Shown one piece after another: positions 21,701-24,700 of a stretch of 64,000 bases of DNA. A program made the position numbers and the translations under genes. Below the pieces are notes generated by a model. That model was not told the origin of the DNA. It was given only the letters and a program-made list of their open reading frames with translations, and ran no database searches. Position 1 is the stretch's first letter; each line of letters opens with the position of its first letter. The DNA is from Octopus vulgaris (Eukaryota), in NCBI GenBank assembly GCA_951406725.2, contig OX597830.1, positions 68,200,001 to 68,264,000 on the forward strand, written 5' to 3'.

Positions 21701-24700
21701 TATATATATATATATATATATATATATATATATATATATATATATATATATATATATATATATATATAGGCTGACATTATGGTTGCTAAACTATGATGAA
21801 GCACTAATCTAATCTTAAGTATTCTGTCACATACTCTGATTACCTCAATTACTTTATCTACCCATTTCTCAGCGATAAGTATACCCACGCCACCTACCCC
21901 GTCAGTGTTCCAGTGTTCCAATGTATATATATACATATATACATATATATATACATATATATATATACATATATATATATACATATATATATACATATAT
22001 ATATACATATATATATATACATATATATATATACATATATATATACATATATATATATATATATATATATATATACATATATATATATACATATATATAT
22101 ACATATATATATACATATATATATATATACATATATATATATATGTATACATATATGTATATATATATATGTATATATATATGTATATATATATATGTAT
22201 ATATATATATATGTATATATATATGTATATATATATATATGTATATATATACATTGGAACACTGGAACACTGGAACACTGACGGGGTTGGTGGCGTGGGT
22301 ATACTTATCGCTGAGAAATGGGTAGATAAAGTAATTGAGGTAATCGGAGTACGTGACAGAATACTTAAGATTAGATTAGTGCTTCATCATAGTTTAGCAA
22401 CCATTATATCAGCCTATGCTCCTCAGTCGGGGCTACCCGATGGACAGAAAGACCGATTCTATGGCGTACATTGAGGCTATGGCTATGGCTCCCGCAACGA
22501 GGAGTGAACCAGGCTGCTGGAGTTCTGCGATGCAAATAATCTTATGATTTCCAACACTAACTTCAGGAAATCTACCAGCCACCTAGTCACTTACCGATCG
22601 GGCCAACATACCAGCCAAATTGACTACATCCTTGCAAGGCAAGGGGAGAGATGGCTGCTTACAAATGCCAAAATCTTACCAGGCGAAGAATTTATCCCAC
22701 AACATAGACTGGTAGTTAGTGACTTTAGGATCAGGACTAGGAGGACAACCAGAAGACGACCAATATGGAGAAGAAGGATCTGGAAGCTTAAAGATCCTGC
22801 AAATGGACAGAGATTTAGGGACATATTACTTGAAGCCTTTGACGAAGTAGAAGGGGATAGAGCATCACAGGGGGTAGAAGACACCTGGACGTTTCTAAGG
22901 GACAACCTGCTGAGAGCCACTGACCAAATCTGTGGCTGGTGCAAAGTCCCCTCTCGACCTAGAATAACGTGGTGGTGGAACAATATTGTAGACAGGGCTA
23001 TTAGAGAAAAGAGACAGGCTTGGAATGTCTGGAAAAATGGGGGTAGCAGGGAATTGTATCAGACTGCCAAAAGAGAAGCTAGGAGACAGGTTTATTTAGC
23101 CAGAGGAGAAGCAGATAAGAAAAAATTTGCCAATGTTCTGCGCCGTGAGGACCAAAGACTGGAGGTGTTTCGCGTTGCAAGGCAGTGTGTGAGAGAGAAT
23201 GTGGTAGGAGAGAAGTGTGTTCGCATGGAAGATGGTTCACTTGCGCTAAATGAGGATGCAAAGAGAGAGGTTTGGAGACGCCACTATGAAAGGTTGCTGA
23301 ATAAAGAAAATGAATGGGATAAAGAGAGTCTGCCGAATGTTGACCCAACAGAGGGACCAGCTATCCGAGTTGATAGTTCCGTGGTAGCTAAGGCAATTAG
23401 AAGTATGAAGACAAAGAAAGCCCCAGGCCCATCAGGAATCACTGCAGAGATGCTCAAAATGTCTGGTAGTGTCGGCTATAGCCTAGTCACCCGTATAGTT
23501 AATCAGGTGATACACAAAGGAGTCATACCCAATGGCTGGTGAAGCAGCATAATAGTCAACTGCTACAAAGGTAAAGGTGACGCCCTAGATATAAATAACT
23601 ATAGAGGTATCAAGCTGTTGGATCAGGTGATGAAGGTTACGGAGAGGGTCATAGCCCAACTAATTAGAGGGAGAGTTAGTTTAGATGAGATGCAGTTTGG
23701 GTTTGTGCCAGGGAAAAGTACCACTGATGCTATATTCCTGGTAAGGCAGCTGCAGGAGAAATACCTAGCCAAAGATAAGCCCCTGTACCTGGCTTTTGTT
23801 GACATGGAGAAAGCCTTCGACAGGGTCCCCCAATCCCTTATCTGGAGATCAATGAGGAAACTAGGGATAGATGAATGGTTAGTGAGAGCTGTGCGGGCCA
23901 TGTATAGGGACGCTGCTAGTAAGGTGAGGGTTGGCAACGAGTACAGTGAAGAATTCTGGGTATAGGTAGGGGTCCACCAAGGCTCAGTCCTCAGCCCCCT
24001 CCTATTTATCATAGTCCTCCAGGCAATAACGGAGGAATTCAAGACAGGATGCCCCTGAGAGCTCCTCTATGCTGATGACCTTGCACTAATTGCTGAGTCG
24101 CTATCAGAACTGGAGAAGTTTCAGGTGTGGAAACAAGGATTAGAATCGAAGGGCCTTAGAGTCAATCTAGCTAAAACCAAAGTCGTAATCAGTAGGAAAG
24201 TAGACAAATCACAAACGCCTTCAGGTAGATGGCCCTGCTCGATCTGTAGAAAAGGTGTAGGTAGAAACTCTATAAGATGCACCAAGTGTAAGCTATGGAC
24301 GCATAAGAGGTGCAGCAATGTCAAAGGAAGGCTAACTAGGAAGATGGTTTTTGTATGTGGCAGATGCTCAGGAACCATAAACACTGAAAATGCTCTGAGA
24401 CCAACTTCCGTCACTTTCCAGGGAGAAAAACTAGAAATAGTTGATAGTTTCCGTTACCTAGGTGACCAAGTCAGCAGCGGGGGCGGGTGTGCTGAAAGTG
24501 TAACTGCTAGAGTAAGAATAGCTTGGGCAAAGTTCAGAGAGCTCTTACCTCTGCTGGTGACAAAAGGCCTCTCGCACAGAGTGAAAGGCAGACTGTATGA
24601 TGCGTGTGTACGAACAGCCATGCTACATGGCAGTGAAGCATGGGCCGTACTGCTGAGGATATGCGTAAGCTCGCAAGAAATGAAGCCAGTATGCTCCGAT

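What the first reader, a model, noticed from the sequence alone, without database searches (positions are those of the whole stretch)
21768..22415. ~650-bp fold-back palindrome: the RTE 5' junction is duplicated in inverted orientation around a mirror-patterned (TA)n spacer
Seen: 21768-21923 is the reverse complement of 22251-22415, including the same idiosyncratic truncation junction (tatatacattggaacact..). The arms differ by a few substitutions and by 2 versus 3 copies of ggaacact. The spacer is also patterned: C-interrupted (atacat) on the left and G-interrupted (atgtat) on the right of ~22140. Inference: two independent insertions would not share a truncation point. Twin-priming inversion would not duplicate this much sequence. 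A post-insertion fold-back or template switch nucleated by the self-complementary (TA)n fits best.
Basis: partly seen in the sequence, partly recalled or inferred. Interest (0 to 1): 0.7.

Follow-up and report, generated by a model that had tools for sequence, protein, structure and literature searches.

The report
Fold-back duplication at a TA microsatellite
A 652-base mirror-image sequence duplicates the broken front end of a jumping gene together with its TA-repeat flank; it likely formed when DNA broke in the TA repeat and one end folded back and copied itself, a known kind of repair accident whose look-alikes recur at other TA repeats in this genome.

Summary
The palindrome is real in the assembly (21766-22417, centre 22147/22148). 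Both arms carry a private 5'-truncation junction: 3 genome-wide matches, being the two arms and one unrelated copy. The left spacer half is the only C-interrupted stretch among six TA tracts counted, so the flank was copied too. The arms share no private substitution (2 and 3 of their own), which dates the copy to the first 40-60% of the element's age. The copy ends on 3 bases of microhomology in (TA)48. None of 74 other young 5' ends has this structure. Four of 605 TA tracts in 1.2 Mb of evenly sampled genome carry near-identical inverted arms (0.2 by shuffling); the three arms searched are local copies. Best reading (0.55): break in the TA tract, snap-back synthesis of about 270 nt, microhomology rejoining, as described in yeast and fly. 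An insertion-coupled fold-back remains open (0.25). TA specificity is not significant (p 0.14). No read spans both arms. The scan noted related fold-backs beside retroelement insertions before, on other DNA.

The parts
19295..21672 (+). Neighbouring young 5'-truncated LINE of another family, ending in an (ATCAAAGT)n tail; its insertion is a candidate cause of the break
   Evidence: RVT_1 E 1e-30; best relatives 98-99%; 13 private differences in 1901 columns, 0.68%; clade not tested
21673..21768 (.). Pure (TA)48; the end that captured the fold-back product
21766..21768 (+). 3-nt microhomology (ATA) shared by the TA tract and the end of the inverted copy
21766..21923 (-). Inverted copy of the element's 5' junction and first 146 bp; 2 stutter units; 3 private substitutions, two of them 4 bases apart near the outer end
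21924..22147 (-). Inverted, longer copy of the TA flank (15 C interruptions)
22139..22156 (.). Centre of symmetry, 18-bp perfect palindrome around GTA|TAC; inferred fold-back point
22148..22251 (+). Original G-interrupted TA flank of the element (7 G)
22252..22417 (+). Original arm: private truncation junction with 3 stutter units and first 146 bp of the element; 2 private substitutions
22272..25558 (+).
   Evidence: RVT_1 E 4.5e-14; stops and frame breaks; 28 private differences in 2896 columns, 0.97%; deletion
25559..25742 (.). G-interrupted TA tract at the element's 3' side (7 G, 0 C), same polarity as the original 5' flank
25743..26072 (-). Separate 330-bp 3' stub of the same family in tail-to-tail position; internal control for what an independent insertion looks like
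   Evidence: 8 sites at which the 29 nearest kin of each copy are fixed or nearly fixed for different bases

Best explanation
The palindrome is a local inverted duplication of the element's finished 5' junction plus its TA flank, likely made when the chromosome broke in the TA tract about 105 bp left of the element and the element-bearing end folded back and copied itself. Shown: the copied block runs from the centre (22147/22148) through the TA flank and junction to 22417, and is joined to (TA)48 on 3 bases of microhomology. Inferred steps: (1) a truncated copy inserted into a G-interrupted TA tract; (2) early in its life the tract broke, by cleavage of a TA hairpin or cruciform or by the nuclease of the neighbouring LINE; (3) the right end was resected and its 3' strand snapped back on the self-complementary TA; (4) a DNA polymerase copied about 270 nt; (5) the new strand was displaced and annealed to the left TA end; (6) slippage later made the spacer halves and stutter counts unequal. 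No function is expected.
For: Private junction on both arms. The flank was copied with it: only 21924-22147 is C-interrupted among six tracts counted, and symmetry is perfect at the centre. Microhomology at the outer joint. The same layout occurs on other DNA: 4 of 605 TA tracts in 120 evenly spaced 10-kb stretches, shuffled pairing 0.2. In L127 (468/468 aligned bases) and L263 (228/231) the copy ends in a short stutter and a TA tract; L158 (64/65) ends 10 bases from one; L147 (64 of the first 65 aligned bases) ends on a short TA run. The three arms searched genome-wide are local copies. 0 of 74 other young 5' ends of this family show the structure, so it is not a habit of the element. The steps match yeast local foldback inversions (PMC11724301 section 15) and snap-back SD-MMEJ (PMC5728401 passages). 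TA repeats are described as cleavage sites repaired by microhomology joining (PMC13645644 passages).
Against: Zero shared and five private substitutions give a maximum likelihood at the moment of insertion; likelihood ratio 4.8 (2.9 if the two clustered changes are synthesis errors) for 'at insertion' over 'uniform later time'. TA versus CA/GA tracts: 4/605 vs 0/391, Fisher p 0.14; pooled with search loci 4/855 vs 0/500, p 0.16; the strict detector found 0 of 250 TA tracts in the search loci. Two of the four look-alikes (L158, L127) have a repeat near the copy's outer end, so they may be insertion-linked. About 270 nt is longer than most described products. The sequence cannot tell a true break from a fork template switch.
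Confidence: 0.55

Rival explanations
1. Insertion-coupled fold-back: during the same retrotransposition event the cDNA 3' end joined and copied the target's TA flank, then folded back, copied itself through the new junction and was captured by the left TA end.
For: Best-fit timing is at insertion. Per-arm divergence 1.7% (0.55-4.0) is compatible with the element's 0.97% (0.64-1.40). L1 insertions show foldback inverted duplications of 52-220 bp in about 0.3% of cases (PMC10191854 passage). A 16-bp perfect palindrome sits right at the junction (22239-22254).
Against: In the L1 case whose mechanism I read, the host (reciprocal) end folds back and host DNA is duplicated (PMC11702581 Fig. S9C caption); here the duplicated block contains the finished junction and element sequence. 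It needs about 105 nt of flank copied before folding. 0 of 74 other young junctions show it, upper bound 4%; this does not exclude a 0.3% process.
Confidence: 0.25
2. Replication-fork template switch without a break: the nascent strand stalled in the TA tract, switched strands, copied back about 270 nt and returned.
For: It gives the same product with the same microhomologies. A leading/lagging switch model exists (PMC10766183, search listing only).
Against: Nothing in the sequence demands it. The abstract read on AT/TA repeats points to nuclease cleavage after fork passage (PMC12972899).
Confidence: 0.13
3. Assembly or read artefact (fold-back chimera at a TA repeat, or two haplotypes placed head to head).
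For: No read or contig spans both arms. The outer joint was covered in no run. Four other contig runs (X6, X7, X10, X12) show no cover of the private junction, and two raw-read runs laid 0 reads, which is no test.
Against: The arms differ reciprocally: each keeps the family base where the other is changed, at 5 sites, plus different stutter counts and spacer lengths. An X1 contig at depth 24 holds the left-arm junction with a left-arm allele.
Confidence: 0.04
4. Two independent head-to-head insertions, or twin priming.
For: The family favours TA tracts (32 of 76 young 5' ends abut one) and tail-to-tail pairs occur, including 25743-26072.
Against: Both arms share a junction found nowhere else. 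The left arm has no 3' tail and stops inside the coding region. The flank is mirrored. Twin priming (recalled) inverts a segment upstream of the forward part, whereas here the inverted part overlaps the forward part completely.
Confidence: 0.03

Closest known systems
Local foldback inversions at yeast double-strand breaks (PMC11724301; abstract, outline, section 15)
   Same: Inverted microhomology near one end, templated inverted copy, capture by the other end with 0-5 bp microhomology.
   Different: Yeast products are mostly 5-34 bp (up to over 150); here about 270 nt, primed and captured by a TA microsatellite, and standing in a genome assembly rather than at an induced break.
Snap-back synthesis-dependent MMEJ in Drosophila (PMC5728401; passages)
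   Same: Hairpin-primed synthesis, unwinding, annealing to microhomology on the other side; TA/AT named as a frequent primer repeat.
   Different: The primer and microhomology repeats in the passages read are 2-9 nt; this product is far longer and carries retroelement sequence.
L1 insertions with foldback inverted duplication at the target site (PMC10191854 passage; PMC11702581 section 7, passages, Fig. S9 caption)
   Same: Inverted duplication of 52-220 bp at the 5' side of a non-LTR insertion, rare (about 0.3%).
   Different: In Fig. S9C the host end folds back and host DNA is copied; here the copy includes the finished junction and 146 bp of the element.
Human palindromic AT-rich repeats, PATRRs (recalled; not read)
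   Same: Several-hundred-bp palindrome with an AT-rich centre.
   Different: No translocation or cruciform evidence here; the arms are retroelement DNA and the origin can be traced.
Penelope-like element palindromic stubs (earlier scan notes; not tested)
   Same: Near-perfect palindromes beside TA tracts in the same genome (for example L004, L011, L120).
   Different: Those have no TA centre and are, per the notes, a normal insertion product; this one is centred in the microsatellite and is singular in its family.

Membership tests
Snap-back / foldback templated inverted duplication | Inverted primer repeat at the fold point | tested here: met
   18-bp perfect symmetry at 22139-22156 within self-complementary TA
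Snap-back / foldback templated inverted duplication | Insert is an inverted copy of the adjacent sequence, starting at the fold | tested here: met
Snap-back / foldback templated inverted duplication | Short microhomology where the copy joins the other end | tested here: met
   ATA, 21766-21768 / 22415-22417; 3 bases against a TA repeat is weak on its own
Snap-back / foldback templated inverted duplication | Starts from a double-strand break and needs a repair polymerase and end joining | not testable with these tools
   needs an experiment
L1-type reciprocal-end inverted duplication | Duplicated DNA is host flank only, from the end opposite the cDNA | tested here: not met
   copy contains the junction and 146 bp of the element (Fig. 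S9C caption)
L1-type reciprocal-end inverted duplication | Formed in the insertion event | tested here: inconclusive
   best fit at insertion, upper bound 0.39-0.60 of the element's age
Twin-priming 5' inversion | Inverted segment is upstream element sequence with little overlap (definition recalled) | tested here: not met
   complete overlap with the forward 5' end
Subfamily feature of the retrotransposon | Junction or inverted arm shared by other copies | tested here: not met
   41 of 41 copies differ upstream; 3 pattern matches; 0 of 74 young ends inverted
RTE clade (for the element) | Reverse transcriptase domain | tested here: met
   PF00078, E 4.5e-14
RTE clade (for the element) | Placement in the RTE clade by RT phylogeny | not tested
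PATRR | Cruciform extrusion and recurrent rearrangement | not testable with these tools
   only single-strand folding computed

The most novel reading that the evidence does not exclude
TA microsatellites in this genome are a standing source of heritable fold-back palindromes, independent of retrotransposition: about 3 per Mb (0.9-8.5), on the order of ten thousand per genome. Each would be made by a break in the repeat, snap-back copying of tens to hundreds of bases of flank, and rejoining on TA. This would be a readable natural record of microsatellite breakage in the germline and a route by which AT-centred palindromes are born.
Probability: 0.4. Interest if true: 0.62.

Novelty: new member of a known kind. 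Interest (0 to 1): 0.4.

Why it matters
The single locus is a repair scar with no expected function. Its value is that the marked TA flank, the private junction and datable arms let the fold point, the copied length and the timing be read off. The look-alikes matter more: if a census confirms thousands of TA-centred inverted duplications, TA-repeat fragility, studied mainly in yeast and cancer cells, could be measured in an animal germline, and the birth and decay of AT-centred palindromes could be followed. My four paper searches on this listed no such census; only the listings were read and subscription journals are largely missing.

Tried and rejected
Idea that both ends of the element were folded back: rejected; the inverted 3' stub at 25743-26072 belongs to another subfamily. 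Idea that the left arm comes from another subfamily: its three own bases occur in 0 of 41 copies, and at the one polymorphic site it matches the window element's 12 closest kin. A genome-wide head-to-head pattern search could not be run, so frequency rests on samples. Eight other 5' ends with an inverted match within 1.2 kb were set aside as separate insertions with different end points. L135, L276 and L132 were dropped from the look-alike count (80-92% arms, offset starts or known repeat on both sides). L039 (two cases) and L102 look like further examples but came from looser scans of non-random loci and are not counted. A mirror C/G switch alone was found in 0 of 17 interrupted tracts outside the window. 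The strict detector misses this very locus because it splits the spacer, so its counts are lower bounds. An apparent 1.8% age was replaced by 0.97% from the whole element with a stricter definition of private. Raw-read runs X21 and X22 laid 0 reads and tested nothing; lack of cover in X6, X7, X10 and X12 is not evidence of absence. Pfam found nothing for the endonuclease-region fragments.

Full report
OBSERVATION. The reverse complement of 21766-21923 aligns to 22252-22417 with five substitutions and one 8-nt unit of difference. The spacer is mirrored: 21924-22147 has 15 C and 1 G, 22148-22251 has 7 G and 1 C, and symmetry is perfect for 9 bases each side of 22147/22148. The whole is a 652-bp palindrome with unequal inner halves. 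It folds at -275 kcal/mol against -76.5 +/- 4.3 for 20 shuffles. The window lies in a 2.8-Gb assembly; earlier scan notes call it an octopus, which I did not test.

SETTING. The right arm is the 5' end of a truncated, decayed non-LTR retrotransposon (22272-25558; RVT_1; stops and frame breaks). The family has at least 1772 candidate matches. It favours TA tracts: 32 of 76 young 5' ends have (TA)4 or more within 45 bp. Here one composite TA tract holds three insertions: a young LINE on the left (19295-21672), the element, and an inverted 3' stub (25743-26072). The flanking tracts 18960-19294, 22148-22251 and 25559-25742 are G-interrupted; 21673-21768 is pure; 26073-26142 has one C and one G; only 21924-22147 is C-interrupted. 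That marks the left spacer half as the copy.

ONE ORIGIN FOR BOTH ARMS. All 41 other copies examined (chosen as best matches) read differently upstream of the junction. The exact junction pattern has 3 matches genome-wide: the two arms and L061, an unrelated truncation. By contrast, the tail-to-tail stub differs from the element's 3' end at 8 sites where the 29 nearest kin of each are fixed or nearly fixed for different bases, which is what an independent insertion looks like. The left arm stops inside coding sequence and joins (TA)48 on three shared bases.

TIMING. The right arm has 2 private substitutions, the left arm 3, and none is shared. The element carries 28 private differences in 2896 columns (0.97%, 0.64-1.40), the left LINE 13 in 1901 (0.68%), and the arms 1.7% each (0.55-4.0). 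The likelihood peaks at the moment of insertion, with an upper bound at 0.39 of the element's age, or 0.60 if the two clustered left-arm changes are synthesis errors. The ratio for 'at insertion' over 'any later time' is 4.8 or 2.9. This result counts against a purely post-insertion reading but does not exclude it. The left LINE's insertion falls inside the allowed interval.

IS IT A HABIT OF THE ELEMENT? Among 144 distinct 5' ends with at least 500 bp of flank (76 young), only this locus has a same-junction inverted copy: 0 of 74 other young ends, upper bound 4%. Eight other ends with an inverted match within 1.2 kb had different end points and were set aside.

IS IT A HABIT OF TA TRACTS? In 120 evenly spaced 10-kb stretches, 4 of 605 TA tracts have inverted non-simple arms that begin at the tract edges (shuffled pairing 0.2). 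The counts are 0 of 303 for CA/TG, 0 of 88 for GA/TC and 1 of 187 for trinucleotide tracts (shuffled 0.5). L127 has 468 of 468 aligned bases, a 73-bp gap and a mirrored spacer. L263 has 228 of 231. In both, the copy ends in a short stutter and a TA tract, as here; L158 (64/65) ends 10 bases from a TA tract and L147 (64 of the first 65) on a short TA run. Three of the four arms were searched genome-wide. L263's has only its two local copies (99%, next 75%). L158's local copy is 97% against 86% for the next best. L127's is full length only locally, though a 108-123-bp inner piece matches elsewhere at 98-100%. The rate is 3.3 per Mb (0.9-8.5). Against this: the TA excess is not significant (p 0.14; pooled 0.16); 0 of 250 TA tracts in 206 search loci passed the strict test; L158 and L127 have a repeat near the copy's outer end; none of the four was checked in reads; and the detector misses this locus itself.

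READS. One 85-base contig of run X1 (depth 24, possibly the assembly's source) matches 21865-21930 exactly, including a left-arm allele and the two-unit junction. No listed piece shows the right-arm junction or the outer joint, four other contig runs do not cover the junction, and two raw-read runs laid nothing. An artefact is unlikely mainly because the arms differ reciprocally from the family.

MECHANISM. Shown: the extent of the copy, its fold point, its joint and its early date. Inferred: a break in the TA tract left of the finished junction, snap-back of the element-bearing end, about 270 nt of synthesis, displacement, annealing to the left TA end, later slippage (0.55). Rivals: the same fold-back during the insertion itself (0.25), a fork template switch (0.13), artefact (0.04), independent insertions or twin priming (0.03).

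KNOWN SYSTEMS. It works like yeast local foldback inversions (PMC11724301; abstract, outline and section 15 read) and fly snap-back SD-MMEJ (PMC5728401; passages), and meets their three sequence-level features; the enzymology is untestable here. TA repeats are described as cruciform-forming break sites (PMC13645644 passages; PMC12972899 abstract and outline). L1 insertions carry 52-220-bp foldback duplications in about 0.3% of cases (PMC10191854 passage). In the case whose mechanism I read, the host end folds back (PMC11702581; passages, section 7 and Fig. S9 caption), the opposite polarity to this locus. PMC9115989 (passages) documents RTE elements in octopus and did not bear on target sites. 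PMC10766183 was seen as a listing only. PATRRs and the twin-priming definition are recalled. Searches listed no census of TA-centred germline fold-backs; only listings were read, and unread supplements could hold one.

VERDICT. Real, locally unique, explained by a known kind of repair accident; the recurring look-alikes are the part worth following. Interest 0.4.

Noticed in passing
L127:6340-7598 (G000:C1:80006340-80007598): Very young TA-centred inverted duplication: 468 of 468 aligned bases, 73-bp gap, exactly mirrored interrupted spacer, copy ends with a 15-nt stutter in a TA tract. Needs raw reads to exclude an artefact.
   Followed up: partly
L263:8703-9378; L158:1167-1323; L147:4194-4403: Three more TA-centred inverted duplications with 65-231-bp arms in the evenly spaced sample.
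   Followed up: partly
L039:1934-2011, L039:2723-2869, L102:2337-2532: Short TA-centred inverted copies in which one arm continues as a repeat family and the other stops; likely the same class, not counted.
   Followed up: partly
window 25181-26072; L069, L114, L194, L207: Tail-to-tail pairs of this retrotransposon family around TA or (ATG)n tracts; the window pair are separate subfamilies.
   Followed up: partly
window 22460/22461: Private 102-bp deletion in the element, 43 bp past the end of the duplicated block, on a 3-base microhomology; link to the fold-back unknown.
   Followed up: partly
window 22239-22254: A second, 16-bp perfect palindrome right at the 5' junction; could be a tiny snap-back of the target end, or chance in an interrupted TA tract.
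   Followed up: no
L061:1500-1560; L223; L116: Other copies also show short tandem stutters of their own 5' sequence at the truncation junction.
   Followed up: no
L004:2570-2865, L011:2882-3126, L120:930-1291, L073:514-631, L076:170-320, L083:2573-2831: Near-perfect palindromes without a TA centre, several abutting TA tracts; earlier notes ascribe such forms to Penelope-like elements.
   Followed up: no
L147:7568-7697: Inverted arms (136/147) around a (TTA)n-(TAA)n centre; tail-to-tail insertion or AT-rich fold-back.
   Followed up: no
window 60883-64000, 10348-13466, 15958-19209: Further LINE copies arranged tail to tail around TA tracts; 16918-18092 matches 62824-63999 at 96.6% inverted.
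   Followed up: no
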